A stretch of DNA of 40,114 nucleotides. Origin: a virus. Lineage: Duplodnaviria > Caudoviricetes. Below, in pieces: positions 2,196 through 38,616 of this stretch; within the stretch, counting starts at the first letter, position 1; every line of letters begins with the position of its first letter. Where the stretch lies: positions 1 to 40,114 of the IMG/VR virus record IMGVR_UViG_3300042814_000132; one strand, given 5' to 3'. The notes below the pieces were generated by a model. The model did no database searches. It worked only from the letters and a program-made list of their open reading frames with translations, and was not told the DNA's origin. Both the position numbers and the translations under genes were made by a program.

Positions 2196-3044
2196 CTACC
2201 GCGGCCACCGCCCTCCATAGGGATTGCCGAGCATCGTCCACAACGGCTTGTCATGCTTGCGGCAGTTGCAGGAGAGGCAGGCTGGTACAACGTTACTCAT
2301 CGTGTGGTGACCGCCTCTCGCGATAGGAATCAGGTGATCTTGCGTCAACGTCACACCCTCCGCTCCGCAATAGGCGCATACGTGGTTGAAGTATTCCTTC
2401 ACCTCCTGCCATTGCTTCGGGGTGAAGTCGTTCACCGGCACGCCCCGCAACTTTGCCCGCCGTCGCTGAGTATAGGGAATGTCATAACCGGGGTGCGCTT
2501 GACGGTGCCTGCGCTGCGTTGCCTTTAGCCGTTCGGGATGCTCCGTACGATACTTGGCAAGGGAAGCGCAGCGCGGTTCAGGATTCTCTGCGTACCGCCT
2601 GCGAGCCGCTGCGTTAATCTCATCGCGTCGCTTTGCGTAACGAGCATTCCGGTGCGCTTGCACGCGATCAGGATTCTCGTCTTGCCAACGCTTGACGCGC
2701 GCCACGATCTTTGCCGAGTTTTCCTTCCGCCACGCCTTAGATTCTTCGGTATGTGCCCAATAGTAAGTCCGACCTTCTGCCTGAATCCGTTCTAGATTCG
2801 CGGCCCGGTATTGCGCGCGCTGCTCTCGATGCCCTTCGTTGTACTTGCGGCGTCGCTCCTGCTCACGCTCAAGGTTTGCGTAATAGTGGGCTTTGCGCAG
2901 GAGGTTCTTGCAGTCCTTGCACCACGATTCGTAACCAGAGGATGTGACAGAGAATCGTGCGATGGGACGCATCTCTTTGCACTTCGTGCAGCAGCGCATT
3001 TCAGGCGGCGGCATGAGGGATGGCTGAGTGTATACTTCGTCCAT
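2196..3044 (-). CDS. HNH endonuclease; C-terminus fused to the displaced end of the upstream gene
   Basis: CTKC...CKDC finger, helical repeats, CAYCG...DHLIPIARGGHHTMSNVVPACLSCN; GGAGG SD supports ATG at 3044. Confidence 0.85.
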   Translation of the reverse strand: MDEVYTQPSLMPPPEMRCCTKCKEMRPIARFSVTSSGYESWCKDCKNLLRKAHYYANLEREQERRRKYNEGHREQRAQYRAANLERIQAEGRTYYWAHTEESKAWRKENSAKIVARVKRWQDENPDRVQAHRNARYAKRRDEINAAARRRYAENPEPRCASLAKYRTEHPERLKATQRRHRQAHPGYDIPYTQRRRAKLRGVPVNDFTPKQWQEVKEYFNHVCAYCGAEGVTLTQDHLIPIARGGHHTMSNVVPACLSCNCRKHDKPLWTMLGNPYGGRWPR

Positions 3045-3132
3045 CGGACACCTCCAACGTGTTCGATGCGCCCCGGCGGTGTTCGAAGCACCAAAGGGGC
3101 ATTTGCGTGATTCCAATGGGCTAAGTATAGCA
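3031..3132. promoter_or_regulatory. HNH leader: sense extended -10, two hairpins, convergent antisense -10
   Basis: TGCTATACT (minus, 3124-3132); hairpins 3070-3100 and 3042-3068; TATACT (plus, 3031-3036). Confidence 0.7.
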
Positions 3133-3133
3133 T

Positions 3134-3556
3134 CTACTGGCGAAACCGTCCATATGGGTTTCCTAGGAATTTACTCGCGTTTCGATCTGCCCCCCACGCA
3201 TTCGGCGGTGGTTCGGGCGCGGTTGTCGTCAGGACGCCCGAGGCGACGCCCAATGAGCTGACAATCTTTTCCTGCCGCGCGATTTCCGCGTCAACCTGCG
3301 CATACATGTCGCTGAGGTTCTTCGCTCGCCCTGAGAGGCGTTCGCTGTGCTCGGCGTGAATGTCGTAATCCGCCTCATCGCGCCGCGTTCCCATGAGGAT
3401 CGTAATCCCCGAACGCTTCGTGTACAGGTAGACGAGGTAGTTGGACCGTCCCGGCGTACTGTGCGCCTGCCAGAAGGCGGGGAGTTGCGTCGCCAGAACG
3501 CCATCGGGATCGCCTAACTCCGCGATGATCATCGCTTCCGTGAATGTGGCACTCAT
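3134..3556 (-). CDS. Putative head-tail adaptor/head completion protein
   Basis: Position after the capsid genes; helical ~140 aa. Confidence 0.55.
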   Translation of the reverse strand: MSATFTEAMIIAELGDPDGVLATQLPAFWQAHSTPGRSNYLVYLYTKRSGITILMGTRRDEADYDIHAEHSERLSGRAKNLSDMYAQVDAEIARQEKIVSSLGVASGVLTTTAPEPPPNAWGADRNASKFLGNPYGRFRQ

Positions 3557-3574
3557 CAGGCGACCCCTTCGTGG

Positions 3575-3832
3575 TTAGTGGGCTGGTGGCGCGGCGGGCG
3601 GCTTGGCCGGTGGCTCCGGTGGCTCTACCGGTTCCTCCTCATCCTCATCGGGCGCATCGGCGGGGACGATGGCACCCACGTCAACGAGGCGCTGGATATC
3701 GAGGCCGTCAAGGTCTTTCTCAGTCAGGCGGTCGCCCTCGCTCCAGTCGTCGACCTTCGTGTGGGCAACGCGGTATTCTTGCGGCTTCTTTTCCGCCTTC
3801 GCCTTCGGGGCGTCATCCTTCGGTGCTGGCAT
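3575..3832 (-). CDS. Small capsid-associated hypothetical protein with acidic/Pro-rich tail
   Basis: Follows the major capsid gene; GAAGGAG SD before ATG at 3832. Confidence 0.6.
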   Translation of the reverse strand: MPAPKDDAPKAKAEKKPQEYRVAHTKVDDWSEGDRLTEKDLDGLDIQRLVDVGAIVPADAPDEDEEEPVEPPEPPAKPPAAPPAH

Positions 3833-3880
3833 AATGGGATACTCCTTCACTCGCTCAGTAGTCAGCGGTCAGCCACACGA

Positions 3881-4894: not shown

Positions 4895-4988
4895 TGCAAT
4901 GCTCCTTTGTCATGCCGCCCGCAGAACCGGGCAACGAAACAGGGCGGCCGGCGCGGCCGCCCCTCAGATCAGTGTGTGCTGGCTATCT

Positions 4989-5717: not shown

Positions 5718-5753
5718 GCTCCTTTCAGGGGCAACAGACGAAACGAATATTTC

Positions 5754-8926: not shown

Positions 8927-11608
8927 CTACTGGCGAAAGGCGGCGGTGGGGCGGGCGTTGCCGGAGATAGCGACAGCAGATGGCGGCTGGCGGATCACAA
9001 GGAACGCCTGCACCACCGCATCCCCGGCGTCCGTCGAACGCTCCAACCGCTTCGCGATCTGCTCTTTGGATTCGATCTGTATCTTGCCGTTACTGGCAAC
9101 TTTCCAGTGTGGCGCGGTCAAGTCTCCCGTCAACACATCATCCGGTGGCAGCGCCACCGTTGGGCCATAGGTAGGGTCAAGACGCTCTCGCATCCCCCAC
9201 CAGACTTCGGCGCGCATATTGATGAATCCGAGCTCGCCCGTCCGGTCGGTCGCGTCGGAATGCTCGGAGGCGATGAAGGAATGAATCCGCTCGCGTTTGA
9301 ACATCTCCCGAAGACGACTGACGACGCCCGCACCGATTCCGATGCCATCCACCACCGCGTAGGCTTTCGGGTGACGATTCAGGAGTCCCGCCACTCTCCC
9401 TGCGGTCTCCATCGTCTCCTCTTTGGCCGTGTAGCGCAGGGTGTCGATGGAATCGCCGTAGCGGGGCGCTTGTACGGTCCTATCAGTACCGCTATCTGAG
9501 ACATCTACACCAACACAAGTGAGAACATCGCTACCAGGCTTGCCCGCATCTTCCCACTGACGCCAGCGGTCATTGGCGGCCTCGACCCACGCGAGGGGAA
9601 TGACGCCATCCTCATCGGATGATGCGAACTCGCCTTCGACGCGGTTCTGGTAGACCGCCGAGTCCTCGCCCCATTGCCGCTTGCGCTGCTCGGCCCACTC
9701 CGACGAGATGCGCCCTGCACCTATCGCCTCTTCTTTTGTCACCCGCCGCACATGCCAGTCCTCATAACCGGGCTTGCGCGATTGGATGTCATAGAAGCGA
9801 CCCTGCGGTTCGCCGGGCGTCGAGTTGGCGATCGCGAACGCCTCGCGCGGCGTATCCTCACCCGCGCCGGAGAACGCGCCCTCCGCCGCGTCGAAGGTCT
9901 CGGCGGGAATCGTCTTTGACTCGTCGAAGAGGTAGAGGAGCGCATCGGCGTGCGCCCCCTCGATCGTCGCCACATTGTTCGATGCGACCGCGAACGCCTC
10001 ACCCGTCGCCAGGCGGAGCGAGAGCGTGTGCAACTCGGTGCGTCCGCTATACGGCGACCGACCGATCAGGTCCCACCGGAGCGAGCGCGCCCACTTGTGC
10101 ACCTCCGGCCAGAGGAACTTGGTCAGTTGCCGCCAGGCGGAGGCGGTCGTCGGCAGCTTCCAGTCCTCGCCGTCCCGGGTGAGCGCGAACCAGTGGATCA
10201 CCCACGCGTCGAAGGCGGTGTTGTGCTCGACAAACTCGGTCAGGAATGTCTCGACGCCGGGCACCGTGATCGCCACCGTGGGCTGATTCTCAATGACGCG
10301 AAGCGATGAGACACGCTCCCATGCGAGGTGTGTTGGCAGGTTCGCGCCGCGCCACTTTTGTTGCTCTTTGACTGACCGCGACCGACACTGCGCCGCGAGT
10401 GCGTCAACCTGCGTCTCTTTGCCGAAGATGCCGACATGCTCGGTAAAGCGCAGGATGTTGGGGGCATCGTGGATCGCGACGGTATGTGCCGCCCCGAACC
10501 GTCGCTCCCCGGCGTGCGTCCACGCGGTTTTCTTTGTCCGCGTCTCTGCATGGACACCGAGACGCAAGAGCGCACGCGACGTGTCCCGTGCGAGCATCGC
10601 GCTTGTCGTCGTGAGACCGATCTCATTTCGTGCTTTGCCGCTCGTGCCGACACCGGAATGCGCCCAACCATCGCAGGCGAATAGCCGCGAGATGAACATT
10701 GCCAACTGCCGGTTGTCCAACCGCCACACCCATGCAGGGAAACACTTGTCGTGTGCTCCGACGCCGCGCATCCCCCATGCGCTCACAAGATCGCGAACCG
10801 GATTCTTGTACTTCCCCGAACCACGAATACCCTTGGTGACGATTCGATAGTCGTACCGATCTATGTACCGCAGTTCAGCACCGAGCGCATCGCAACACGC
10901 GCGAATCTCGTCCAGACTTGCGCCTTCGACTTGCGTGATCCGTAAATTGCCGCCTGTCGTGTTGCCGTCACCGATCAGGTATGCCGCGAGTTTGATCGCC
11001 TCATCGCTCATCGCCAGTGGTTCACACGTCTCGGTACCGAGATAGACCGCAACCGCTGAACCGATGGTTAGTTCGCCCGCCGCGATCCATGACCCTTCGG
11101 GCCGCAGTCGCATGCTGTATTCCGGCTTGCTGTAACGCAACGGCGTCGTATCTGCCCAGAGCGGATGATTGAGCGTCCGCGTCAGCACTCGGCCCTTATC
11201 GGTCGTGATCTCCACCACGTCGCGCGCACCGTTATCCCACGCATGAGCGCGGGCGGTGACGACCCGCAAATCCTTGTCCACCGCCAGCACGTCGAACGAC
11301 TTGCCGATCAGTTCATGGGCTTCAACTATGCTCCCGTCCGCGAGTCTCATGCCATCATTATAACATACGCACTTACCGATGCCGTGCGGGCCGCGAAACG
11401 AGATGCGCTGGTAGCGGATCAGATCGTCCAGTAGCTCGAGCTGGTAGTCGGTCGGTCCCTTCCCCTTCGGGAAATGGATGCAGTCGAGGACGAAATCGAC
11501 GGCGCTATCCCGGTACTTCTCCTGGAACTCCCGGTACGGCTCCGTCTTCGCCGTCAGTGCCGCCAGCCGTGCCGCTTCCCGCTGTTCCTCTTCCGTCCGC
11601 CGGCGCAT
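8927..11608 (-). CDS. terL: Terminase large subunit containing an intein (start uncertain)
   Basis: Walker A GPHGIGK/T split by the intein; Walker B YLFDES; nuclease GVDV and STDAGDA motifs. Confidence 0.9.
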   Translation of the reverse strand: MRRRTEEEQREAARLAALTAKTEPYREFQEKYRDSAVDFVLDCIHFPKGKGPTDYQLELLDDLIRYQRISFRGPHGIGKCVCYNDGMRLADGSIVEAHELIGKSFDVLAVDKDLRVVTARAHAWDNGARDVVEITTDKGRVLTRTLNHPLWADTTPLRYSKPEYSMRLRPEGSWIAAGELTIGSAVAVYLGTETCEPLAMSDEAIKLAAYLIGDGNTTGGNLRITQVEGASLDEIRACCDALGAELRYIDRYDYRIVTKGIRGSGKYKNPVRDLVSAWGMRGVGAHDKCFPAWVWRLDNRQLAMFISRLFACDGWAHSGVGTSGKARNEIGLTTTSAMLARDTSRALLRLGVHAETRTKKTAWTHAGERRFGAAHTVAIHDAPNILRFTEHVGIFGKETQVDALAAQCRSRSVKEQQKWRGANLPTHLAWERVSSLRVIENQPTVAITVPGVETFLTEFVEHNTAFDAWVIHWFALTRDGEDWKLPTTASAWRQLTKFLWPEVHKWARSLRWDLIGRSPYSGRTELHTLSLRLATGEAFAVASNNVATIEGAHADALLYLFDESKTIPAETFDAAEGAFSGAGEDTPREAFAIANSTPGEPQGRFYDIQSRKPGYEDWHVRRVTKEEAIGAGRISSEWAEQRKRQWGEDSAVYQNRVEGEFASSDEDGVIPLAWVEAANDRWRQWEDAGKPGSDVLTCVGVDVSDSGTDRTVQAPRYGDSIDTLRYTAKEETMETAGRVAGLLNRHPKAYAVVDGIGIGAGVVSRLREMFKRERIHSFIASEHSDATDRTGELGFINMRAEVWWGMRERLDPTYGPTVALPPDDVLTGDLTAPHWKVASNGKIQIESKEQIAKRLERSTDAGDAVVQAFLVIRQPPSAVAISGNARPTAAFRQ
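10220..11371 (-). mobile_element. Intein (384 aa) with LAGLIDADG endonuclease in the TerL P-loop
   Basis: Starts CVCYND after GK; TLNHP block B; YLIGDG and LFACDG; ends VEHN followed by T. Confidence 0.9.
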
Positions 11609-12011
11609 CCACTCCAGTTGATCCGCCTCTGGCCATAGGTGCCGAAGCCGCAAGGAAGGCGGCAAGGTCGAGCCTGACCCCCTGCGTCTCCGATTGGAGG
11701 TACTTGAGCCAGTCGAGGATGTCTTTGTCGCTCTGGACATCCTCGTCGTCCTTCACCCGCTGGGCAATGATGCGCTTGACGAGGCGGACCCGCGCGGCTC
11801 GACTACCAAGGCCGACCATAAAGGTGAGCTTGTCCACCTCAGCGGAGAAATCCGGGTGCTGCATCCACCGCGAAACGGTCTTCTCGTTAATGTCCAACGC
11901 CTCGGCGACCGCGCGCTGCGTCTGCCCATCCGCGAGGGCAATGGCGGCAAGGGTTCGCGTCTCCGTCCACTTGAACGGTTGGTGCTCCTGCGGTGCCTCA
12001 TTTTCGGACAT
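11505..12011 (-). CDS. terS: Terminase small subunit (HTH)
   Basis: TQRAVAEALDINEKTVSRWMQHPDF helix-turn-helix immediately upstream of terL. Confidence 0.75.
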   Translation of the reverse strand: MSENEAPQEHQPFKWTETRTLAAIALADGQTQRAVAEALDINEKTVSRWMQHPDFSAEVDKLTFMVGLGSRAARVRLVKRIIAQRVKDDEDVQSDKDILDWLKYLQSETQGVRLDLAAFLAASAPMARGGSTGVDAPADGRGTAGSGTAGGTDGEDGAVPGVPGEVPG

Positions 12012-12973: not shown

Positions 12974-13252
12974 TCACTGCAATCCTTCCTGTCGCTCCAA
13001 CTCCTCCCGAAATGCGTCCGCCCGGATGCGGCGCGCCGTCTCGATCGCCATGCTGCCCTGAGGGCTCCCGGGGTCGGGCAGCGCCGCGGGTGCGGACGCG
13101 GACTCACGGCACATCGCCGTCACCGCGAGCGCCACGACGATGAGCGTCAGGGCGACGCCGAGCCGCGTGTCGAGCCGCCACGTCCGATAGAGCGCGTATC
13201 CACTCGCACCGAGGGCGACGAGCGATGCCAGGCCATGAATCCGCTTACGCAT
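12974..13252 (-). CDS. Small membrane protein
   Basis: Two hydrophobic segments; GGAGG SD. Confidence 0.6.
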
Positions 13253-13814
13253 GACCGATCTCCTCCCAAAGGGGCAGCGTGGGCGCATTCACCGCATCGC
13301 CGTGATCGTCCGGGAAGTTCAGGATCGCAAACTCCCCATGGATGCGTCGCGCCGCCGCGTCGTAGGCGCGAGCAGCCTCCTCGCGCGTGGTGAACGTGCC
13401 AAGCCGCACGATGCGATTGTTTACCGAGATGCTCGCCCGCCACTTCCCGCCCCTCGGAACTGACCCCACGCCGCGGAAGCCGCTCTTTGACGGCTTCTTC
13501 CGAGCATTGGCTGCGTTTTGCGTCCGATCTGCCAGACGGATGTTGCACCTGCGGTTGTCGAGCCCGTCGTGGTTCTCGTGATCCACCAGCACGCCCGGAG
13601 GCGCGCCGAGGAGAAAACGGTGCATCCGCATCGTCTGCGGCTTCGGCGATCCGGGAACGTGGAACCACGTCGCCGCATAAAACCCGCCGCATGCACTGTT
13701 GGCGGGATAGGGGCTCCACCGATATTTCGACACGCGCTCGTAGTCCTCTTCGTCAATGAGCGCAAAGAGCCCGGGATACTTGCGGCTGTGCAGGGGAATG
13801 CGGACAATGCCCAT
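13245..13814 (-). CDS. HNH-AP2 endonuclease
   Basis: [17 protein letters not shown] plus AP2 domain (FRGV...WRASI...[15 protein letters not shown]); GGAGG SD. Confidence 0.9.
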
Positions 13815-13914
13815 CTCAGGCCTCCTCGGAAGGTCTGGGCGCGTCCCGGACGGTTGCAGCCGTGTTACCGGGACATCGCAGCGATTTGACTGTCCCCATT
13901 GTCGCATTTTCCGC
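13803..13914. promoter_or_regulatory. HNH leader (sense -10, two hairpins, antisense -10)
   Basis: GCGGAAAATGCGACAAT on minus; GTCCCGG..CCGGGAC and CTCAGGCCT..AGGTCTGGG hairpins; GACAAT on plus at 13803-08. Confidence 0.65.
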
Positions 13915-13920: not shown

Positions 13921-14556
13921 TTACAAGCAGTTTGGCGCATCGCAATCGCCTAAATCCAACATCGGAGAGTTGATGCGGGCCATCCATCTGCGGATTTCCG
14001 GTACGTAGCGGGACGGCCGATATTTGATCGTCGTGCCGTCCGCGCTCTCGCAGCCGAGGCCGGCGGCATAGGCGAGGCGCTGCCATGAGTTCACCCGGCC
14101 CATGTGCAGCCACTTCCCGTGCGCCAACGCATCCGCTGCCGCCTGCCGGCCCTCGTCGCCCAGCTTGAATGCGTCGTCGCCGCCCATGAGGACCGCATCG
14201 AATGCATCCCACTCGATCGGATCGGGCTGCCAGCCGTTCTGCGCCGCGAGGGCGACCCGATAGCCCAGCGCGCGGATGCGCGGCAGCATCGATTCTGAGC
14301 GCAGCCAGGTGAAGAAGGCGCTCCCGACGACGTCCGGGGCGACGGCGAAGAGGCAGCCCGCCCGGTCGCGCCCATCGAGCCAGGTGAGGAACGCGTCATC
14401 ACCGACGTAGCGGTCACCGAAACAGCCGTTGTCGGCCGCCCACGGCATCCCCGCGGGGACGGCCTTGGATGACGCCGGCGAGAGCATCATGCCGATGCCG
14501 GGCACGTCATGGAGGCGGCGGTGCGCGGTGCCGGTGAGATACAACATCAGCGCCAT
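13921..14556 (-). CDS. DpdA/TGT-like transglycosylase (putative 7-deazaguanine DNA insertion enzyme)
   Basis: TGT-fold motifs in the expected order: ADNGCF, APDVVG, AQNG, LMGG, LHMG, SADGT; QueF-like gene nearby. Confidence 0.65.
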
Positions 14557-15071
14557 GACCTCCCATGCACGATGTCGCCTATCGTCGAGGGCCAGACGCT
14601 AAACTCAGCCGCCAAGTCCTTTTCCATTTCGCCTGCCTCGCGCCGGCGTCGAATCTCCTCCACTTGCGCGCGGGTCAACTTCGCCCCTTGATTGCGCTCC
14701 CCGATAGCGCCATTCGCGCGGCCCTTCTCTTGGCAGTCGAGCCGATTGTCTGCATTCGTCCCCGTGAAGAAGTGCGCGGGGTTGACGCATTTCCGGTAGT
14801 CGCAGCGGTGGCAAACGTTCAGGCCATCCGGCACGGGGCCGTTGGCAATGTGGTAGGAAACGCGGTGTGCTAACCGGGTCGCGCGCGTGCCATCCGTCTG
14901 CGAGCCGACGATGAACATGCCGTATCCATTGGGGTTGATATACCCCGTCCACTCCCAGCAGTGACCGAGTTCGGGGCAATGCGCGGGGATCGGGCCGTCT
15001 TTGTTGACCTTCGCGAAGAAGCGCGCGAGTAGTGACGGCGTGACGGCAAAATGGGTAGACTTGGAATGCAT
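14547..15071 (-). CDS. HNH endonuclease with C-terminal HTH
   Basis: CWEWTG...GYG...AHRVSY...VCHRCD...CVNPAH...DN, then AKLT...HTH. Confidence 0.9.
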   Translation of the reverse strand: MHSKSTHFAVTPSLLARFFAKVNKDGPIPAHCPELGHCWEWTGYINPNGYGMFIVGSQTDGTRATRLAHRVSYHIANGPVPDGLNVCHRCDYRKCVNPAHFFTGTNADNRLDCQEKGRANGAIGERNQGAKLTRAQVEEIRRRREAGEMEKDLAAEFSVWPSTIGDIVHGRSWR

Positions 15072-15165
15072 CTCAGACCTCCCGTGTCTGGGTGCCACGT
15101 CGGGGGGTGCTGGTAACACCGCCCCGGCATTCGTATTTCGCTCAGCCCATTGTAGCATTTTCCGC
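15056..15165. promoter_or_regulatory. HNH leader (sense -10, two hairpins, antisense -10)
   Basis: GCGGAAAATGCTACAAT on minus; GGTG-N7-CACC stem-loop; CTCAGAC..GTCTGGG over the SD; TAGACT on plus at 15056-61. Confidence 0.7.
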
Positions 15166-15630: not shown

Positions 15631-16104
15631 TCATCGCGGCGGGTAGCCAAATGCTGCCTGCACCGGTTTCGGCTGCTCGCTCGGCGTGCCGCGGACGCGC
15701 AAGGCGCGCTCGACGTAGGTGAGCGCCCGTCCGTCGGCGATCATGTCTGTCGTCACGCGGATGACGAGCCATCCGAGAATGGCCGCCGTTGAGTGCTTTT
15801 CGCAGTCGTTCTCGACGCCCGCCCCGCGCACATGCGCCCCCTGGATCCACGTGCCGCCGTCGATGTCGATCGCGACCTTCACGCTCGGATATGCGAGGTC
15901 GTACCGCCACTGCCGCGCCGGCGCCGCGAACCGGTGTTGCCGCACTGGCTCGGACAGCCCAGCCTGGTGTATCTGGCCGAAGAGTGAGTCTTCGAGACAC
16001 GTGCAGACCCTGTGCCCACATGTCCGGCAGGGTGCCTTCGGATTGCGCGGCAACCGGTCGTGCTGCGGGGCATTCGGGATGTCGGCGAGCGAGATGCTGG
16101 GCAT
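15631..16104 (-). CDS. PD-(D/E)xK endonuclease (Vsr/DUF559-like; possible resolvase)
   Basis: QHRF...WRYDLA...VAIDIDGG...H...DCEK...LGWLVIRVT. Confidence 0.75.
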   Translation of the reverse strand: MPSISLADIPNAPQHDRLPRNPKAPCRTCGHRVCTCLEDSLFGQIHQAGLSEPVRQHRFAAPARQWRYDLAYPSVKVAIDIDGGTWIQGAHVRGAGVENDCEKHSTAAILGWLVIRVTTDMIADGRALTYVERALRVRGTPSEQPKPVQAAFGYPPR

Positions 16105-16589
16105 CAGGATTCGCCCTCCGAGAAGTTGAGTCGCGCGAACCGACCGAAATACTTGAGCGCCGCCGCGTCATATGCGCGGGCTGCTTCCTCGGCGGTGCTG
16201 AATCTGCCGAGGAAGATGAGCTTTCCGTCCACCCTGATACTCGCTTGCCACGCGCCGCTCCCCCGCTTATGCCGCGAGACCCCCTTGAAGCCGGATGTAC
16301 CGCTCCGATTCGCGCTCCTGTTGTGTCCGTTTTGTCGGGGTGTGCACACGCGCAGGTTCTCGCGACGGTCGTCGAGCGTGTTCCCGTTGCGATGGTCAAC
16401 GAACGCGCCCGGGGGATCGCCCATGAGAAAGCGGTGGAGGCGGACCGTTCGGGTGCCGTCGCGCCGTGCCGCGTACCAGTTGCCGCTGCCTTCCTTCGCA
16501 TGCCATCGATAGCAGAGCACGCGCTCCGCATCGTCCGCGTCAATGATGGCGACCTTGCCATGTGTGAGGGGTACGCATACAGTAGCCAA
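16104..16589 (-). CDS. HNH-AP2 endonuclease
   Basis: VDHRNGNTLDDRRENLR plus AP2 (FKGV...WQASI...EEAARAYD); AGGAGG SD before TTG at 16589. Confidence 0.9.
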   Translation of the reverse strand: MATVCVPLTHGKVAIIDADDAERVLCYRWHAKEGSGNWYAARRDGTRTVRLHRFLMGDPPGAFVDHRNGNTLDDRRENLRVCTPRQNGHNRSANRSGTSGFKGVSRHKRGSGAWQASIRVDGKLIFLGRFSTAEEAARAYDAAALKYFGRFARLNFSEGES

Positions 16590-16685
16590 ATCGGACCTCC
16601 TAAACAGGTTCGATGACGCCGGGCGGTGGCTCCAATCACCGTTCCGGCATTCGCTATTTATCTGCATAGATTCTACCATTTTCCG
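16578..16685. promoter_or_regulatory. HNH leader (sense -10, two hairpins, antisense -10)
   Basis: GCGGAAAATGGTAGAAT on minus; CGGTGATTGGAGCCACCG stem-loop shared with the 36.3 kb leader; TACAGT on plus at 16578-83. Confidence 0.7.
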
Positions 16686-18824: not shown

Positions 18825-21017
18825 CTAGCTCTGTGCTGACTCGCCCTCCGGTCCCGCCTCGCGCACGATGGGCGCGCCGTCGCCCGTGTACGCGACGACG
18901 AGCCTGCCCTCGAAGATGCCGATCAGTTGGTCGTAGTCTGCTTTTGTGAGCACGTAGAGGGAGACCTCGCCGCGGGCCGGGTCGAGCTTGTCCGGATGGA
19001 GGAGGTGCATCGTTTCGCGCTTGGCGTCCTTGGTCCAGCCCTCATCACTGCCGGTCGCCCAGAAGAGGGCGATCTGCTGCGCGTTCGGCTTCCACGGCTC
19101 GATGCGCTCCGCAGGCGGCGCGGGCACGGGCTCCGATTGCGATGGAAGGGGTGCCGATGGGGTGACCACGCCTGTGCTCCTCACCTCCTGGCGTCCGGTG
19201 ATGATGAGCTCTTTCGCCTGCTCCAGCGTCAGGCTCTCGATGTGATCCACGCCCAGGGCGGCGAGTCGGTCTGCCAGCGGATAGCCCTTGTCAGCGAGCG
19301 CGCGCAGCTGGGCGTGCTGGTGGAGATTGGAGCGTGCAGGCGTGGGTGGTGCGGCGATCTTCCCGTCCACGATCTCACCGGCAGCGATCGCCGCGGGGCG
19401 CACGGCCGTCGCACGCCGGGGCCGCTCCTCGTTCTCCGCCTGCCCCATCTCCTCCTCGGTGTAGATGCCCCGCGTCTCGTTCGGGAAGGCGGCCCGGATT
19501 GCCTGACTCTCGGCGCAGTTGCCGCAGAGCATTGAGAAGCCGTGCCGACGTACCACGATCACGCCGGAGGGAACCGTGACGCACCAGACGCGCCCGCCCG
19601 CGTTGGGCTGCAACTCAAGGCCTGGGTGCTTGCGCGTGGTCGTCTGCGGATTCGGGTTGTGATACTCGCGACCCCATCGCACCACGGGAATATCGTCACG
19701 CCCGCTGATGGTGACGTGGTAATTCGGCTGCGCGCTGATGTCTGACCAGCGCGCGGTGCGCTGGCTGACCGCGTACCCCGCGATGACCGCAGCGAGCTCG
19801 AAGGCCTCGATGTGATCGGGCCGTGACGAGTAAAAACGCCGGACGCCCGTTCGCTTGTTCGTGCTGCCGTCGAACGCGACCAGTGTATCGATCAGCAGCC
19901 GCGCCTGGTCACGGTTGAGGGAGAGCACCGCATCCCGACCGATGCGCTTCCCCTCATCGCAGAGGTACGCAACTGCCGCGCGCGGATAAGAGAATCGCAT
20001 CTTGTCCAGCCGCGTTGTGATCGTCCGCGCCGGCGTGACGGCCACCGCACCTGCCGCAGCGCGGCGCGTCTCTGCGATGTAGCTGCCGATCTCGCGGAGT
20101 CGCGCGACCTTTCCGGGACGCGATACCTCCACCGCGATCGTCCTGCCCGGGCGATCAGTGCCGTCCGCGAGGTAGGCGGCACTGATGGCAATCTCCGTAT
20201 CCGTCACCGGTGCGGCGGATTTGAGCGTCGTGACGAGACGCGGGATGCGAAACATGGCGCGGGTGCGCGCCCGCTCGTACATCACGCCCGCCTCGATCTT
20301 CCCTGCCGTTGTCACCATGTCGTGATTCGGCGTGACGCTGAAATTCAGATCGTCACTGTCGAGCGTCACCATGTCGCCGTTGTACGCTTGCACGAAGGGG
20401 CGTGCATTCGTCGGTTCCAACCCCCTAGCCGTCACTTGCAGCACGCGCCCTGTCACCGCGTTGAAGGGTTGGAACCCCTGATCCGTGAGGACTTCCGTGT
20501 CCTCGCTGAAGCACTTGGCGAGCATGTGATCCGGCATCTTCTTCCAGAGCGAGACCGGGTTGCCCTCCCGGTCGGTCTGGACGAAAGCGTCGTAGCGGAC
20601 CGTCGCCCAGAGGGTTTCTGACCAGTCCGTGCGTTTGACGCCGACACGCGCGGCGACGGGCGGATCGCTCTTCAGCCAGACATCGGTCCAGACACCGTCC
20701 GCGCCGCACCAGTACGGCCCGATCCTGCCGGCATATATACCTGTCCGCTCGGCGATCAACCGGTACCCATTGATCGACGTCTGGATCCGCAGAGCTTCCT
20801 CCCAGTTGCCCTGCGCGTTCTTCACCCGTTGCTTGATGGGATAGAACTGCTTGTCGAAGAGCGAGAGGCCGGTGCGTCGCTCCACCGCGGCGACGAAGTC
20901 CAGTTCGACGTCCGTCAATCCCGGTGCGATGCCGTTCCGGATTGCCTGGAGCTCATCGCCGAAGACCTCGGCGGCGAGCGCGCCGGCCTCGCGAGTGACC
21001 AGTGCGTCACTTGCCAT
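18825..21017 (-). CDS. bet: Bet/RecT single-strand annealing protein containing an intein
   Basis: TGLSLFDKQFY, QTSINGYRLIAERTG, WKKMPDHMLAK/CAESQAIRAAFP...GIYTEEEM. Confidence 0.9.
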   Translation of the reverse strand: MASDALVTREAGALAAEVFGDELQAIRNGIAPGLTDVELDFVAAVERRTGLSLFDKQFYPIKQRVKNAQGNWEEALRIQTSINGYRLIAERTGIYAGRIGPYWCGADGVWTDVWLKSDPPVAARVGVKRTDWSETLWATVRYDAFVQTDREGNPVSLWKKMPDHMLAKCFSEDTEVLTDQGFQPFNAVTGRVLQVTARGLEPTNARPFVQAYNGDMVTLDSDDLNFSVTPNHDMVTTAGKIEAGVMYERARTRAMFRIPRLVTTLKSAAPVTDTEIAISAAYLADGTDRPGRTIAVEVSRPGKVARLREIGSYIAETRRAAAGAVAVTPARTITTRLDKMRFSYPRAAVAYLCDEGKRIGRDAVLSLNRDQARLLIDTLVAFDGSTNKRTGVRRFYSSRPDHIEAFELAAVIAGYAVSQRTARWSDISAQPNYHVTISGRDDIPVVRWGREYHNPNPQTTTRKHPGLELQPNAGGRVWCVTVPSGVIVVRRHGFSMLCGNCAESQAIRAAFPNETRGIYTEEEMGQAENEERPRRATAVRPAAIAAGEIVDGKIAAPPTPARSNLHQHAQLRALADKGYPLADRLAALGVDHIESLTLEQAKELIITGRQEVRSTGVVTPSAPLPSQSEPVPAPPAERIEPWKPNAQQIALFWATGSDEGWTKDAKRETMHLLHPDKLDPARGEVSLYVLTKADYDQLIGIFEGRLVVAYTGDGAPIVREAGPEGESAQS
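19518..20513 (-). mobile_element. Intein (332 aa) with LAGLIDADG-like domain in Bet
   Basis: Starts CFSEDTEVLT; VTPNH block B; AYLADG and LVAFDG; VWCVTV block F; ends CGN followed by C. Confidence 0.9.
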
Positions 21018-22442: not shown

Positions 22443-22720
22443 GCAGCTGCCTCGCAATCTGCGTCGAGGACGCGGGCGTCCCAGACATCCCACGCATTGA
22501 TGGTGTGCTCGATGCCGTTCTCGCTGGCGACGCGGATCCACTCGCGCCCGACACCCACGACCGCGACAACACCCGCGCACTCCGCGTCCTCGTCGTCGAG
22601 CCAGACAAGCTCGACCGGCAGGCGCTGCGCTCGTGCAGCCTTCGCCAGCATGCGCAGGCAGAACGGCGGGTCGGTGTGGCGGTAATGGCTGATTTCTTCC
22701 TTGACTACGCTGGTGGCCAT
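22439..22720 (-). CDS. Hypothetical protein
   Basis: Coupled ORF, GAAGGAAG SD. Confidence 0.5.
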   Translation of the reverse strand: MATSVVKEEISHYRHTDPPFCLRMLAKAARAQRLPVELVWLDDEDAECAGVVAVVGVGREWIRVASENGIEHTINAWDVWDARVLDADCEAAA

Positions 22721-22748
22721 TGGTACACTTCCTTCGATCTCCACAAGA

Positions 22749-23560: not shown

Positions 23561-23606
23561 CGCGTACTTTGCAATGCATTATGCGGCCCGTATTCGCAGT
23601 TGTCAA
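23561..23606 (-). promoter_or_regulatory. Early leftward promoter with operator
   Basis: TTGACA (23601-06)-17 bp-CATAAT (23578-83); operator CGCGTACTTTGCAATGCA at 23561-78. Confidence 0.7.
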
Positions 23607-26036: not shown

Positions 26037-26110
26037 GCTGAATCAGATCATTCGGCGTACCCACCAATACAAAACAGCCTAAGCGGTCGCGTGGATTGCA
26101 CACGAAAACG

Positions 26111-26247
26111 TTGACAAGTCGCGTACTTTGCTATACAATATGCGTACTGAGATACGTGTTCTATCTCATAGATTGCCCCCGCAATGCATCACCATCGCGA
26201 GGGCGAGCAACCAAAGGAGTTAGCCCTATGGTCGCCAGCGCACAGTA
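26111..26247 (+). promoter_or_regulatory. Early rightward promoter with two operators and a hairpin/antisense leader
   Basis: TTGACA (26111-16)-17 bp-TACAAT (26134-39); operators 26120-37 and 26141-58; hairpin about 26175-26204; TACTGT on minus at 26242-47. Confidence 0.7.
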
Positions 26248-26638
26248 CATCACCCACACCTTCACGGCAACCGTCAGCGTCCAGATTCCGCGCACCATCA
26301 CCGCGGACACTGACCCGCAGACCGTCGAGCACGCGCTCCACGCCTTCTACCGTCGCGCACACGATGAGATGCAGCACAGCGGCGGCCTTTTCCCCTTCGA
26401 TTCGCTGAAGATCGTCGCCGACGCGATGGCCGACAGCGGTGCGGTCACGTGCGAGTACACCAACGATGCGGGCATCACGCGGGCGCGCACCCTCTTCCCC
26501 TACTCCATCCACCTTACCGACGCACGCAAGATCGAAGTCAAGGCGTACGACACGTTCCGGCAGGCGACACGCTCCTTCCGGCTCGATCGCATGCAGGGCG
26601 CGCACCTCGTGACCCTGCCCTGCGATCAGGCGGCGTAA
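26228..26638 (+). CDS. WYL-domain protein
   Basis: EYTNDAG..RARTLFPYSI...AYDTFRQATRSFRLDRM. Confidence 0.8.
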   Translation: MVASAQYITHTFTATVSVQIPRTITADTDPQTVEHALHAFYRRAHDEMQHSGGLFPFDSLKIVADAMADSGAVTCEYTNDAGITRARTLFPYSIHLTDARKIEVKAYDTFRQATRSFRLDRMQGAHLVTLPCDQAA

Positions 26639-27595: not shown

Positions 27596-28096
27596 ATGCA
27601 AACGGAGAGTAAACTGTTCGGTCTCAATGCCGCGCAAATCGCACGCTTCTGGTCGAAGGTTGATCGGAGTGGTGGAGCGTCCGCGTGTTGGGAATGGCGC
27701 GCGCATCGCAATCACCATGGCTATGGGCAGTTCGGCACCGGAAAGCGGAGGAGCGGCAGCAAGGGGACGGCACTCGCACATCGCATTGCCTATGCGCTTT
27801 CCTATGGTGACTTCCCTGCCACGCTCGATGTCTTGCATCGGTGCGACAATCCGTGCTGCTGCAATCCAGCGCACCTCTTCCTCGGCGATCACGACGCCAA
27901 CATGGCAGACATGGCCGCAAAGCATCGCATTCCCTACGGCGAATCCCACTATCACGCAAAACTTACCGATGCTCAGACGCGGGAAATCCGCAGGCTGTAC
28001 GGCTCCGGTCGCATGCTCCAGCGTGAGATTGGGCAGCGATACGGGATCGCGCAACAGACGGTCAGCAAGATCGTCCGCGGAAAGAACCGACGATGA
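27596..28096 (+). CDS. HNH endonuclease with C-terminal HTH
   Basis: RFWSKVD...CWEW...GYG...AHR...VLHRCDNPCCCNPAHL...AN. Confidence 0.9.
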   Translation: MQTESKLFGLNAAQIARFWSKVDRSGGASACWEWRAHRNHHGYGQFGTGKRRSGSKGTALAHRIAYALSYGDFPATLDVLHRCDNPCCCNPAHLFLGDHDANMADMAAKHRIPYGESHYHAKLTDAQTREIRRLYGSGRMLQREIGQRYGIAQQTVSKIVRGKNRR

Positions 28097-35099: not shown

Positions 35100-35325
35100 C
35101 ACGGTTCTGCCCCTTGTCATCGCTCTCCACGGGTGCGAAGAGGCGGGATGTAAGGTAGTTCGCCCGCCGCTCCAAGTCAAGGAGGCGTCGTGCCCGCCGT
35201 TTGTAGTCTTCTTCCCATTCCACATGCAGCCGCTCACGTGCCGCGACCTCATCATCGGAAAAGAGCGGAACAGGCAGAACCCCCTCCTGCCTGCGACGGA
35301 AGAGCCGTTCGAAGATGCCGCTCAT
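35092..35325 (-). CDS. Hypothetical protein
   Basis: ATGA coupling. Confidence 0.5.
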   Translation of the reverse strand: MSGIFERLFRRRQEGVLPVPLFSDDEVAARERLHVEWEEDYKRRARRLLDLERRANYLTSRLFAPVESDDKGQNRGD

Positions 35326-35636: not shown

Positions 35637-35761
35637 CACATCGTTCCTCTTAGCCGAGGGTGGACACGGAGATTGCTCGCCAGATTGGCGCGTGCTGGTG
35701 CCGTTGGTGTTGCTGGCACTTGTCGTGGCGATACTCGTCGCAGATTCCGCATCCCAATGCG

Positions 35762-36247
35762 CTAGGGCCAACCCCCGCACGATTCACGGAGTTTATGCGC
35801 ACGCTCTCGCTGCCTGGCGGCCCTGCATGCACGGCAACGGCGGGCAACGCGCCCGTCCGGTCGGTGTTCGAGATAGGTGTTCTCCGGGGTGAACGCATGC
35901 CCGTGCTTGCAATGCGTCTGCTTCTGCCCGTGGGTTCTGCCCTTCGCCGCCGTGTCCCTGTTATTGTCCGCTACCGTCCCTAAGAAGAGATGTGCCACTT
36001 CATAGCAGGACGGATTGTCACATTTATGAAGCACCCATTGGCCATCAGGAATCGGACCGTTGGCTTGCTCCCAGACGAGGCGGTGAACCCTGACGAGTTT
36101 GCCGTTCTTCCCGCCATACTGGCGCAGGCCGTACCCGTCTCTGTCTCTTGCTTGCGCCCATTCCTTGCACGGAACGCTTCGCCAATCGTCTGCGGGGTTG
36201 TCGGTGAGGGGGAACGCCAACTGATGCACGCGTGCTACACTCGCCAC
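35762..36247 (-). CDS. HNH endonuclease
   Basis: DGYG...VHRLVW...VLHKCDNPSC...HLFLGT..DN; THCKHGH...CRAC; AGGAGG SD before GTG. Confidence 0.9.
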   Translation of the reverse strand: MASVARVHQLAFPLTDNPADDWRSVPCKEWAQARDRDGYGLRQYGGKNGKLVRVHRLVWEQANGPIPDGQWVLHKCDNPSCYEVAHLFLGTVADNNRDTAAKGRTHGQKQTHCKHGHAFTPENTYLEHRPDGRVARRCRACRAARQRERAHKLRESCGGWP

Positions 36248-36336
36248 GTCGAACCTCCTAGATAGGTCTCGACAACGCCGTTCGGTGGCTCCAATCACCG
36301 GGCGGCATTCGCTATTTGACTGCCTACATTATAGCA
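36233..36336. promoter_or_regulatory. HNH leader (sense -10, two hairpins, antisense -10)
   Basis: TGCTATAAT on minus at 36328-36; TGCTACACT on plus at 36233-41; near-identical to the 16.6 kb leader. Confidence 0.75.
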
Positions 36337-36357
36337 GATTTAGCCCATTGGGATGGG

Positions 36358-37032
36358 CTAGGGATGAGATCCGCAGCCCCAGTATTTCGCCGGGTTGATC
36401 GCCTTCAAGAACTGGCTCGTGTAGTACGCCTGGGCAAAGTTGCTCTTGGGATGCACGCCGTCCCAGCCGTACGGGATGCCAATCCAGTAGACCGGCATCC
36501 CCGTCATATCAACGTAGGTTGCCCCGTACTGCTCTGCCTTCGCCTTGTTCACATCCTCCAGCCCCTGCCACACGGCCTGGAAGTCCTGCGCCCAGTTGAA
36601 CGGCGGGGGCTTGACGCTCTGCTGCCCCTGGGCTGCGAGTGGGGTCATGCCGACGACGATGATCTGTGTCGGCTGCACGGCCATTGCGAGGATCGCGGTC
36701 ATCATCGTATCCCAGGCAGCCGCGTAGGTGGTCGGGTTATTGAGGTCATCGGCATAGAAGAAGTCATTCGTGCCGTACTCGATGATTAGCTTGGCGGGCG
36801 TGTACGGCACGATGCGGACGGGGACGCCCGTGGCGCCGCTGTTCCCGGTGATGGTTTGCAGCGTGGTGCCGCCGATTGCGCCTCGGGTGAGGTCGGCCGG
36901 GCTGACTCCCTTGCCGACCCGCGTCCAGCCCATAACGTTACAGACGCCGTCAAACCAGCGACCGCCGCCATAGATGGTTGGATCCATCGTGCTGTCGCTG
37001 ACGCTATCCCCGTAGACTTCAGCCGTCGGCAT
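36358..37032 (-). CDS. SGNH/GDSL hydrolase (probably virion-associated esterase)
   Basis: GDS, GTND and DGVHP blocks. Confidence 0.85.
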   Translation of the reverse strand: MPTAEVYGDSVSDSTMDPTIYGGGRWFDGVCNVMGWTRVGKGVSPADLTRGAIGGTTLQTITGNSGATGVPVRIVPYTPAKLIIEYGTNDFFYADDLNNPTTYAAAWDTMMTAILAMAVQPTQIIVVGMTPLAAQGQQSVKPPPFNWAQDFQAVWQGLEDVNKAKAEQYGATYVDMTGMPVYWIGIPYGWDGVHPKSNFAQAYYTSQFLKAINPAKYWGCGSHP

Positions 37033-37501
37033 CGGCTGCCTCCTGCGGCAGTTGCTCGGCAAAGCGCATCGCCAGATCAAGGAACTGCTGGCGCGTCATG
37101 GGCGGCTCCTCCGGCTGCGGTCGCTCCTCCGGCGGCACATAGGGCAGGACGGGAGCCGCGTGCCGCTCGCCGTCATCGTTCAAATGCCAGTGCCCGCCCA
37201 GTCGCTCCACATGCCCGCGGACCTCCTCCACCGCTCGCGCACGCTTCTTCTTGCCGTGATGGACGCGGTGCGCGACGTGGAGTGCCTGGGCGCCGGGATC
37301 CCCATGCACGGGGACGTAGACGGTGTGCCGCCCGTTCTCATCTTCCACCTCGGGACTGACGAGGAGCGTTTCGTCCAGCCCCAGTTCCGGGTGCCCCGCG
37401 ACCAGGGGAGGATGCGTCCAGTCAGCGATGGTGAATGTATGCTCTACGCCGTCATGTACCATCGTCGCCTTGCCGTGCTTGTCAAGGTCCGTGAACTGCA
37501 T
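37019..37501 (-). CDS. Hypothetical protein
   Basis: GGAGGAG SD. Confidence 0.6.
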   Translation of the reverse strand: MQFTDLDKHGKATMVHDGVEHTFTIADWTHPPLVAGHPELGLDETLLVSPEVEDENGRHTVYVPVHGDPGAQALHVAHRVHHGKKKRARAVEEVRGHVERLGGHWHLNDDGERHAAPVLPYVPPEERPQPEEPPMTRQQFLDLAMRFAEQLPQEAADADG

Positions 37502-37513
37502 CGCTCGCTCCTC

Positions 37514-38470
37514 CTAGAACGTGATCGTATCAACGATGAGCGTCGCTCCGGTGATGAACGTGTCCGCGTTGGCCGCGCTCCCGACGACGTCGATCGTCGC
37601 GAAGGTGTCGCTGAAGTTGGTCACGGTCGGATTGGCGAGGAGGTTGGCTTGCGACGATCCTGTCATGTCAACGATGGGAGCGGCGGGAATCCCGTTCATA
37701 CGGATGAAGGGGATCGTGAACTGGTGATGCTCATTCGTGCTATTGGTACGGAAGCGGCAGTTGAACGGCAACTTCTGGTAACGATGGCGAACGCGAAGCC
37801 ACTCCTCTACCGGGTCGAGCGGCACGTAGGGCACGGGCCCCGGCGTTTGGGTGAGCATGAAGTTGTCGAGGTAGTAGGTGGCATTCTGCTGCGCCACGAA
37901 GCCGACATAGATAATGCTCGCGTTGCTGGCAATCACGCCCGTTGCCGTCAGGGTCGTGAAGGCTCCCAGCGCGGTGACCTGCCCGTTGTAGATATTGAAG
38001 TCATCCTGGAGGAAGACGTAGCCGGACGCGGCCGCCGCGCCGATCACACGCCCGCTCACACTGAGTTGCTTACTGCGGTACTTCTCCACTTCAACGGTGA
38101 TTTGATAGATGGTCGCTCCGCTGCCGTTGCTGTCAAACTTCAGGCTCGTGGCGCTGCCGTCCACCGTGCCCGTGTCTCGCGTGCTGTGCCCACCCAGGAC
38201 GATCCAGCCGTCCGCTCCTGCCTGTGCCTGTGCCGCGCTCCCATCAATGGGGCCATTGCCGCGCTGCCAGATTTCAAAGCCTGGGTTGGTGAGGATATTC
38301 TTCTCGTACTGCGGCACCTGGGAGAGCGCGGCGCCAACGATCTTATCGGTATTGGTCCCCAGGAGCATTTCCTGGGTGTAGCGCCCAAAGTCCAGGATGT
38401 TGTTCCAGTCCGTCGTCGTCACCTGATCATTCACGGCACGGTAGGTGCCCAGGCTAGGTTTGGTGGTCAA
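37514..38470 (-). CDS. Tail fiber/receptor-binding-type protein
   Basis: NILTNPGFEIWQRG carbohydrate-binding-like start and EEWLRVRHRYQK motif; paralog of 39275-40114. Confidence 0.65.
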   Translation of the reverse strand: MTTKPSLGTYRAVNDQVTTTDWNNILDFGRYTQEMLLGTNTDKIVGAALSQVPQYEKNILTNPGFEIWQRGNGPIDGSAAQAQAGADGWIVLGGHSTRDTGTVDGSATSLKFDSNGSGATIYQITVEVEKYRSKQLSVSGRVIGAAAASGYVFLQDDFNIYNGQVTALGAFTTLTATGVIASNASIIYVGFVAQQNATYYLDNFMLTQTPGPVPYVPLDPVEEWLRVRHRYQKLPFNCRFRTNSTNEHHQFTIPFIRMNGIPAAPIVDMTGSSQANLLANPTVTNFSDTFATIDVVGSAANADTFITGATLIVDTITF

Positions 38471-38517
38471 AATCGCACCCCCTTTATCCTATTGTTGTGC
38501 GGTAAACTCGGATGGGT

Positions 38518-38616
38518 TATAATGAAGTCGTTGCCAACGAAATGCCCTCACGTTGCTCTAACAGCGTGAGGGCGCACACCGGAAAGGTGAGTTTCCGATG
38601 CCAGCCAAGGGTAGCA
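38518..38616. promoter_or_regulatory. HNH leader (sense -10, two hairpins, antisense -10)
   Basis: TATAAT on plus at 38518-23; GCCCTCACG..CGTGAGGGC; CGGAAA..TTTCCG before ATG; TGCTACCCT on minus at 38608-16. Confidence 0.7.

What the first reader, a model, noticed from the sequence alone, without database searches (positions are those of the whole stretch)
3031..38616. Conserved convergent-promoter, double-hairpin leader predicts a cis-antisense RNA silencing each HNH
Seen at six HNH genes of different subfamilies (3031-3132, 13803-13914, 15056-15165, 16578-16685, 36233-36336, 38518-38616): a sense -10 (TGn-extended in five, three preceded by GCGGAAAA), a GC-rich hairpin, a second hairpin over the SD/start, and an opposite-strand -10 inside the first few codons (TATACT, GACAAT, TAGACT, TACAGT, TGCTACACT, TGCTACCCT). 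The predicted antisense start falls within about 3 nt of the start codon in all six. Most stem mismatches are G-U pairs on the antisense strand, and in five the anti-SD lies in or at the edge of the loop. Inference: a 55-65 nt antitoxin-like RNA represses each toxic nuclease, as in type I toxin-antitoxin loci. This differs from the T4 HEG arrangement of an RBS hairpin bypassed by a late promoter.
Basis: partly seen in the sequence, partly recalled or inferred. Interest (0 to 1): 0.85.

Follow-up and report, generated by a model that had tools for sequence, protein, structure and literature searches.

The report
SymR-like antisense brake on phage nucleases
Six of the nine DNA-cutting (HNH) genes in this soil phage sit behind the same short two-hairpin leader, which recurs across many phages and bacteria in front of nucleases, integrases and excisionase-like genes and likely makes a ~60-base opposite-strand RNA that would cover the ribosome site and keep the enzyme scarce, in the manner of the known SymR and P22 Sar RNAs.

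Summary
Observation confirmed at all six sites, but 3 of the 9 HNH genes lack the leader, so it is not on 'each HNH'. The leader belongs to a widespread family. In 99 dereplicated relatives, an opposite-strand TAnnnT lies in the first codons in 59, against 8 of 62 control starts; synonymous-codon resampling gives at most 38. Its position tracks the start of the antisense 5' hairpin, and both hairpins fold better on the antisense strand. Targets include HNH and GIY-YIG nucleases, integrases, resolvases, excisionase-like genes and Rha. The layout matches E. coli SymR and P22 Sar. Relatives hit SymR, R1162 and FinP below Rfam cut-offs; the six window copies hit nothing relevant. The family's commonest 3' loop equals the ColE1 origin loops. 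No expression data were available, and toxicity is untested. Verdict: a likely cis-antisense translational brake, a new variant of a known kind; 'type I toxin-antitoxin' overstates it. This scan reported the same family before on other DNA (e1-10212106, e1-5676182, e1-5359496).

The parts
3124..3129 (-). Sense extended -10 (TGC-TATACT) of the HNH starting at 3044
   Evidence: sequence
3043..3104 (+). Predicted antisense RNA 1 (5' hairpin 3043-3067 with anti-SD in the loop; 3' hairpin 3070-3100; short U tail)
   Evidence: R1 35.1 bits by construction; transcription inferred
3031..3036 (+). Antisense -10 TATACT in codons 3-5
   Evidence: sequence
2196..3044 (-). HNH endonuclease, 282 aa (PF01844)
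13898..13903 (-). Sense extended -10 (TGC-GACAAT), preceded by GCGGAAAA
   Evidence: sequence
13815..13888 (+). Predicted antisense RNA 2 (hairpins 13816-13838 and 13839-13879)
   Evidence: transcription inferred
13803..13808 (+). Antisense -10 GACAAT (weak) in codons 3-4
   Evidence: sequence
13245..13814 (-). HNH_3-AP2 endonuclease, 189 aa
15149..15154 (-). Sense extended -10 (TGC-TACAAT), -35-like TTGTGA, preceded by GCGGAAAA
15068..15137 (+). Predicted antisense RNA 3 (hairpins 15068-15095 and 15099-15128; 3' loop CUGGUAA)
   Evidence: transcription inferred
15056..15061 (+). Antisense -10 TAGACT in codons 4-6
   Evidence: sequence
14547..15071 (-). HNH_3 endonuclease, 174 aa
16670..16675 (-). 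Sense extended -10 (TGG-TAGAAT) with ATGACA -35, preceded by GCGGAAAA
16590..16659 (+). Predicted antisense RNA 4 (hairpins 16590-16614 and 16618-16648)
   Evidence: transcription inferred
16555..16583 (+). Antisense promoter TTGCCA-17-TACAGT inside the coding sequence
16104..16589 (-). HNH_3-AP2 endonuclease, 161 aa, TTG start
36328..36333 (-). Sense extended -10 (TGC-TATAAT)
36248..36317 (+). Predicted antisense RNA 5 (hairpins 36248-36273 and 36277-36306); leader 81% identical to that of 16589
   Evidence: transcription inferred
36236..36241 (+). Antisense extended -10 (TGC-TACACT) in codons 3-4
   Evidence: sequence
35762..36247 (-). HNH_3 endonuclease, 161 aa, GTG start
38518..38523 (+). 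Sense -10 TATAAT (no TGn)
38540..38601 (-). Predicted antisense RNA 6 (hairpins 38601-38576 and 38573-38544)
   Evidence: transcription inferred
38608..38613 (-). Antisense extended -10 (TGC-TACCCT, weak hexamer) in codons 4-6
   Evidence: sequence
38598..39317 (+). Zinc-finger HNH endonuclease, 239 aa (PF01844), opposite to its neighbours

Best explanation
Each of the six leaders is a portable control cassette that likely makes a ~60-70-nt cis-antisense RNA of the SymR/Sar/FinP type, which would pair with the ribosome-binding site of its own HNH gene and keep translation low. Shown in the sequence: a sigma-70-type -10 about 80-90 nt upstream of the gene, two hairpins, and an opposite-strand -10 within codons 3-6 placed so that transcription would start at the first base of the 5' hairpin. 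Predicted by folding: the antisense 5' hairpin holds part of the anti-SD in a 4-7-nt loop, and the 3' hairpin ends in a moderately U-rich tail that would act as terminator. Inferred: the 3' hairpin forms on both RNAs; its loop is closed by C.A on one strand and U.G on the other, so both loops stay open and could start pairing by kissing, and the commonest such loop is that of the ColE1 origin hairpins. The mRNA's own hairpin partly hides the SD as a second layer, as in IS200. The result would be a threshold: a short burst of nuclease on entry into a cell without the RNA or during strong lytic read-through, and silence in the prophage. It is a general brake for mobile-element genes rather than a nuclease-specific antitoxin.
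For: Antisense TAnnnT at +4..+16: 39 of 64 viral relatives (3 of 64 at +20..+32) against 8 of 62 control starts; 37 of 56 bacterial-genome relatives (1 and 2 of 56 further downstream); 59 of 99 after dereplication, Fisher p 2e-9, with synonymous resampling giving means of 11-25 and maxima of 19-38, and the hexamer spread over frames 36/20/3. The -10 position tracks the 5' edge of the antisense hairpin: 29 of 58 at 5-9 nt, permutation mean 19, p 0.001, Spearman 0.48. Antisense fold more stable in 47 of 64 (3' hairpin) and 45 of 64 (5' hairpin), against 13 of 62 controls. Changes on both sides of a pair: 47 cells against 20.9 shuffled in 67 matches not used for the model. Loop closure C.A 57, U.G 34, Watson-Crick 8 of 99, though the pattern allowed all four. 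SymR: -10 at symE +14..+19, start +6, two hairpins; silent -10 mutation raised SymE protein more than sevenfold (PMC1891008, section 5 read). P22 record: sar ends at the base before the ant start codon, promoter at +7..+35 of ant. Sub-cut-off Rfam hits of relatives to SymR (E 0.002), R1162 RNA (E 0.005-0.01) and FinP (E 0.035). Modularity: leaders of 16589 and 36247 are 81% alike though the proteins are unrelated (27%, E 0.039), while related proteins 16589 and 13814 (45%) have leaders 59% alike.
Against: No transcript has been observed for any member. The antisense -35 is barely above background in the family (mean 2.5 against 2.25 of 6 matches), and 40 of 99 relatives have no TAnnnT in the tested window (some are false hits or wrong starts). 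Two window -10 boxes are weak. The U tail is only about 45% U. The apical stem, the SD and the YUNNNAR loop were written into the search patterns, so their conservation is by construction; with the loop left free, only 4 of 23 well-stemmed hits had YUNNNAR, and several real-looking ones had other loops. Model R1 does not find symR or sar and scores the finP region only 5.2 bits, so common descent is not shown. Related sequences inflate the covariation test.
Confidence: 0.78

Rival explanations
1. A cis-acting mRNA leader only: the hairpins fold on the mRNA, hide the SD and lower translation, and the opposite-strand hexamer is a by-product of AT-rich first codons.
For: The SD is partly paired in the sense ensemble in all six. 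mRNA hairpins over the RBS are the known control of T4 homing endonucleases (PMC2988022, passages). The -35 is weak.
Against: Enrichment of the antisense -10 survives codon resampling with N-terminal usage (max 26 against 59 of 99), tracks the hairpin edge, and the folding bias is antisense where controls lean sense. No promoter inside the hairpin provides a T4-type bypass.
Confidence: 0.1
2. Convergent-promoter transcriptional interference: the antisense promoter is real but acts by polymerase collision or occlusion, and the RNA is incidental.
For: Two facing -10 boxes only about 90-95 nt apart in all six.
Against: The antisense strand keeps a structured 5' hairpin with the anti-SD in its loop (z below -1 in 40 of 64 against 9 of 62 controls), which collision does not need. 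A sense -10 is seen in only 52 of 99 relatives.
Confidence: 0.07
3. A true type I toxin-antitoxin addiction module: an unstable antisense RNA and a stable toxic-nuclease mRNA kill cells that lose the prophage.
For: SymR, a type I antitoxin, is among the closest Rfam neighbours. Nucleases make up 21 of the 44 downstream proteins with a Pfam match.
Against: The same element fronts 7 recombinases, 5 excisionase-like genes and Rha, which are not addiction toxins. Toxicity and RNA stabilities are untested. This differs from the best explanation in biological role, not in molecular mechanism.
Confidence: 0.03
4. A DNA operator: the pseudo-palindrome at the tip of the 3' hairpin is bound by a dimeric repressor or by the endonuclease itself.
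For: The tip is self-complementary in consensus and occurs in both orientations. I-TevI autorepresses through an operator.
Against: Loop length varies from 6 to 8 nt among the six copies, the lower stems covary without sequence conservation, G-U tolerance is strand-biased, and unrelated proteins share the element.
Confidence: 0.02

Closest known systems
SymR / symE of E. coli (Rfam RF01809; PMC1891008, section 5 and passages read)
   Same: About 70-77-nt RNA opposite the translation start; promoter inside the first codons; two hairpins, with a 3' hairpin tip GUG-UUGGCG-CAC much like the 6-nt-loop window copies; one relative scores 36.1 bits, E 0.002.
   Different: Far below the 61-bit cut-off; window copies do not match; targets are HNH and other mobile-element genes, not symE; the anti-SD sits in a 7-nt loop rather than a long stem; no LexA control was looked for.
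P22 Sar / ant (RF00262; GenBank BK000583 annotation; primary papers seen only as references)
   Same: 70-nt two-hairpin RNA starting at the base before the start codon; -10 at +7..+12, as in three window copies; anti-SD in the 5' hairpin loop; 3' terminator hairpin.
   Different: No Rfam or R1 match; no mnt/arc switch; repeated six times in one genome on nucleases.
R1162-like plasmid antisense RNA (RF00043) and FinP (RF00107)
   Same: Three relatives score 36-37 bits against RF00043 along the whole model, and one scores 30.4 against FinP; finP lies opposite the traJ start with two hairpins. Their translational roles are recalled.
   Different: Below the cut-offs (55 and 45 bits); targets are not rep or traJ; no FinO-like chaperone was looked for.
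IS10 RNA-OUT and IS200 art200 (PMC4513863, abstract and passages read)
   Same: Cis-antisense RNA blocking ribosome binding on a mobile-element enzyme; RNA-OUT acts in trans on all copies; IS200 combines antisense RNA with mRNA structure.
   Different: No sequence or Rfam match; RNA-OUT is a single long hairpin (recalled); the hosts here are free-standing phage genes.
ColE1 RNA I / RNA II kissing loops (RF00106)
   Same: Two ColE1 origin hairpins carry the loop CUACCAA/UUGGUAG, the commonest 7-nt loop of this family (26 of 99).
   Different: RNA I controls primer formation, has three hairpins, and window copies do not match RF00106; convergence is not excluded.
T4/Aeh1 homing-endonuclease RBS hairpins with late-promoter bypass (PMC2988022, passages read)
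   Same: RNA structure over the RBS of a homing endonuclease gene.
   Different: Here the sense promoter lies upstream of both hairpins, so there is no bypass, and an antisense promoter is present; the passages read mention no antisense RNA control of these genes.

Membership tests
SymR (RF01809) | Covariance-model score at or above 61 bits | tested here: not met
   no match at the six sites; best relative 36.1 bits
SymR (RF01809) | Target is symE | tested here: not met
   targets are HNH genes
SymR (RF01809) | Promoter embedded in the first codons, RNA overlapping the start region, two hairpins | tested here: met
   predicted geometry only
P22 sar (RF00262) | Covariance-model match | tested here: not met
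   R1 does not hit P22
P22 sar (RF00262) | Located in an immI region before an antirepressor gene | tested here: not met
R1162-like antisense RNA (RF00043) | Covariance-model score at or above 55 bits | tested here: not met
   relatives 36-37 bits; window copies no match
c4 antisense RNA (RF01695) | Covariance-model match | tested here: not met
Cis-antisense translational repressors of mobile elements (general kind) | Opposite-strand promoter giving an RNA complementary to the RBS | tested here: met
   sequence statistics only
Cis-antisense translational repressors of mobile elements (general kind) | The RNA is expressed and lowers translation | not testable with these tools
   needs RNA data and reporters
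Type I toxin-antitoxin systems | Target protein is toxic to the host | not testable with these tools
   HNH motifs present; toxicity untested; many family targets are recombinases
Type I toxin-antitoxin systems | Antitoxin RNA neutralises the toxin mRNA in vivo | not testable with these tools
   no expression data
T4-type RBS hairpin with late-promoter bypass | Promoter starting inside the hairpin so that late transcripts free the RBS | tested here: not met
   sense -10 at -80 to -89, upstream of both hairpins

The most novel reading that the evidence does not exclude
Free-standing homing endonucleases carry an RNA-level self-test. Each cassette's antisense RNA is sequence-specific (predicted duplex -148 to -164 kcal/mol with its own leader, -37 to -108 with the others) and acts in trans, so an incoming nuclease gene is expressed only in a cell that does not already hold that cassette, the cell where homing pays. 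The cassettes would form one cross-phylum superfamily with SymR, R1162 RNA and FinP, built on a ColE1-type kissing loop and shuffled onto nucleases, integrases and excisionases.
Probability: 0.25. Interest if true: 0.72.

Novelty: new variant of a known kind. Interest (0 to 1): 0.5.

Why it matters
Known control of phage homing endonucleases rests on mRNA hairpins, late promoters and operators. An antisense cassette would explain how a temperate phage carries nine HNH genes, several with their own promoters, without damaging itself or its host. The family spans many phyla, is missing from Rfam at curated thresholds, and can mislead start-codon calls (Gordonia phage Spooky gene 31). Cultured carriers (Gordonia phages, cluster F mycobacteriophages) make it directly testable, and the variants are a natural set of mutually specific riboregulators for high-GC hosts. 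The mechanism itself is textbook, which caps the surprise.

Tried and rejected
Rfam: window at E<=5, six sites alone at E<=10 and 20 relatives gave nothing relevant. Lacto-int, recalled as a candidate, has a different sequence (PMC2864571 supplement passages); passages of PMC5737381 named no such motif (its supplements were not read). Literature: and an exact search for six 15-mer hairpin tips, listed no paper describing antisense control of HNH genes or this motif; I judged these from listings only, and subscription journals and supplements are outside the search. Sequencing runs: no RNA holder listed. Laying four DNA runs showed no contig joining across a cassette, so cassette borders could not be mapped. 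To find a member in an organism with published start-site maps I searched E. coli K-12, pSymA, pSymB, S. clavuligerus pCLA1, a D. deserti plasmid, pAtC58, Nostoc alpha, and phages Fruitloop, Girr and P22 with R1 and three of them with a pattern: no match. SCP1 and RSF1010 were not in the collection. The first pattern scan was mostly chance hits, and the single-protein scans gave few relatives. The YUNR U-turn test was dropped as uninformative, since the central base of a 7-nt loop is a purine on one of the two strands by necessity. Sensing of uncharged tRNA through a UGG loop was considered and judged unlikely because UGG lies on either strand (29 sense, 21 antisense of 99). The host was not determined.


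Full report
Setting. The window is a linear, partial virus record of 40,114 bases, 63% G+C, held by soil metagenome runs. It encodes a serine integrase, repressor-like HTH proteins, RecT, a replication initiator, terminase, portal, capsid and holin, so it is a temperate tailed phage (80 and 76 chosen ORFs of the 235 listed). Nine ORFs are HNH endonucleases. A longer twin contig (G001, 50,285 bases) supplied the DNA upstream of the cut gene at 1-684.

Observation. The six segments are as described: a sense -10 at -80 to -89, two hairpins, an SD, the start codon and an opposite-strand -10 at +7 to +16. A start 7 nt after that -10 lands on the first or second base of the antisense 5' hairpin in all six. 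Antisense folds have z of -1.9 to -4.3. Three HNH genes lack the element. A model built from the six plus 55 relatives finds the six by construction (24-44 bits); its best match elsewhere in the window or the added 11 kb is 15.7 bits, E 0.21. The -10 alone is weak evidence: 5 of 32 other starts in the window have a 4/6 or better opposite-strand hexamer.

Family. A pattern for the tip of the 3' hairpin plus an SD found 95 viral stretches (83 unique, 77 with an extended stem, 64 with a start codon after removing the window's twin) and 120 stretches in bacterial and archaeal genome assemblies of many phyla. I dropped 9 of the 64 by eye from the model seed but kept them in the counts. I gave 100 of the 120 genome loci to the model, which returned 67 matches; 59 full-length ones went to a script and 56 had a start codon. 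Features that the patterns did not select were then tested. An antisense TAnnnT lies at +4..+16 in 39 of 64 viral and 37 of 56 genomic members, but at +20..+32 in only 3 and 1, and in 8 of 62 control starts that have an SD but no such hairpin. After dereplication it is 59 of 99 (p 2e-9); keeping the amino acids and resampling codons gives maxima of 19, 26 and 38 under three usages; the hexamer falls in frames 36/20/3. Its position tracks the 5' edge of the antisense hairpin (29 of 58 at 5-9 nt, permutation mean 19, p 0.001). The antisense strand folds more stably in 47 and 45 of 64 for the two hairpins, whereas controls lean sense (13 of 62). Changes on both sides of a pair number 47 cells against 20.9 shuffled, but the apical stem is invariant by construction and relatedness inflates this test. 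Against: the antisense -35 is near background, the tail is about 45% U, and a sense -10 is seen in 52 of 99 (37 of 99 on the opposite strand at the same place).

Targets and modularity. Of 103 downstream proteins, many cut by locus ends, 44 had a Pfam match: 17 HNH-type, 4 other nucleases (endonuclease VII, GIY-YIG, Vsr, PD-(D/E)XK), 3 tyrosine and 4 serine recombinases, 5 HTH_17 excisionase-like, Rha, ArdC and 9 others, some of them false hits. Conversely, only 3 of 73 HNH-AP2 relatives carry it directly upstream. In the window the most similar leaders (81%) sit on unrelated proteins, and related proteins have dissimilar leaders. Cultured carriers include Gordonia phage Spooky gene 31 and cluster F mycobacteriophages.

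The 3' loop. Among 99 members the loop is closed by C.A in 57 and U.G in 34, and by a Watson-Crick pair in 8, although the pattern allowed all four. These two forms are reverse complements, so the sense and antisense hairpins both keep an open loop, which suits loop-loop initiation (inference). The commonest loop, CUACCAA/UUGGUAG (26 of 99), is the loop of two ColE1 origin hairpins. Loops with U-turn motifs start pairing in other antisense systems (PMC7430163, passages). Caveat: YUNNNAR was in my pattern. With the loop left free, 4 of 23 well-stemmed hits had it, most of the rest look like chance, and a few real-looking members had other loops; 6-nt loops also occur, with an antisense -10 in 8 of 11.

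Mechanism. Shown: the anatomy and its statistics. Inferred: a ~60-70-nt RNA is made from the coding-region promoter, ends after the 3' hairpin, pairs with the leader through the two loops and blocks 30S loading; the mRNA hairpin adds partial SD occlusion. By analogy with Sar and RNA-OUT this would give a burst on entry into a naive cell or under strong lytic read-through, and silence in the lysogen. Five of the six genes lie inside same-strand operons, so they would also be read from upstream promoters. Predicted duplex energies suggest that each RNA is specific to its own leader, with partial cross-talk between 16589 and 36247.

Comparison. SymR has its promoter in the symE coding sequence, and a silent -10 change raised SymE protein more than sevenfold (PMC1891008, section 5 and passages; sequence). 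P22 sar ends at the base before the ant start, with its promoter at +7..+35; PMC2629481 and PMC13397905 (passages) describe it as the antisense regulator of ant. RNA-OUT and art200 block ribosome binding on transposase mRNAs (PMC4513863, abstract and passages). Three of 20 relatives scanned hit SymR, R1162 RNA or FinP at E 0.002-0.035, all below cut-off; 20 others and the window copies hit nothing relevant, and R1 does not recover symR or sar. It works like these RNAs but is not a member of their families. T4 endonuclease genes use a late promoter that bypasses the hairpin (PMC2988022, passages), which is not the layout here. Searches listed no paper on this family; supplements of RNA-motif surveys, which I saw only in part, could hold a related motif.

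Earlier notes of this scan describe what appears to be the same family on other DNA. They are unchecked AI notes and not independent evidence; my Sar reading was stated before and the SymR link came.

Verdict. A real, statistically strong and likely functional cis-antisense cassette; a new variant of a known kind; interest 0.5, limited by the textbook mechanism and the lack of expression data.

Noticed in passing
window 8927-11740 (-): Large terminase-like ORF interrupted by an intein with a LAGLIDADG domain (Pfam PF14528; sequence).
   Followed up: no
window 18825-21017 (-): RecT-like protein split into two matching stretches by a ~330-aa insert whose ends look like an intein (recalled motifs); RecT is an unusual intein host.
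   Followed up: no
window 1-684, 21093-21677, 27596-28096: Three HNH genes without the cassette; two directly follow upstream ORFs, and one has a bare promoter and short leader in the twin contig (L204 near 10060-10105).
   Followed up: partly
window 35762-36247 (-): This HNH has Glu where relatives have the Asn of the C-x-N-P motif, so it may have altered activity.
   Followed up: no
window 26096-26638 (+): ORF with a WYL domain (E 1e-8) beside a near-consensus promoter at 26111-26139, next to the integrase.
   Followed up: no
window 22701-22729 (+) and 23578-23606 (-): Strong convergent sigma-70-type promoters near the HTH repressor genes, a likely lysis-lysogeny control region.
   Followed up: no
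L427 1483-1561 (Gordonia phage Spooky gene 31): The deposited start codon lies 26 codons upstream of the start behind the SD, inside the cassette leader; probably a mis-called start.
   Followed up: partly
L213, L222, L242, L288, L044 around the pattern match: Low-GC variants have A-runs before and T-runs after the 3' hairpin and an antisense -10 not inside a start region, suggesting a longer-leader or attenuating form.
   Followed up: no
L300 1022-1059 (P22 sar terminator hairpin): The tip of the sar 3' hairpin (CUG-UUACCG-CAG) resembles the UUACCAG loop of this family.
   Followed up: partly
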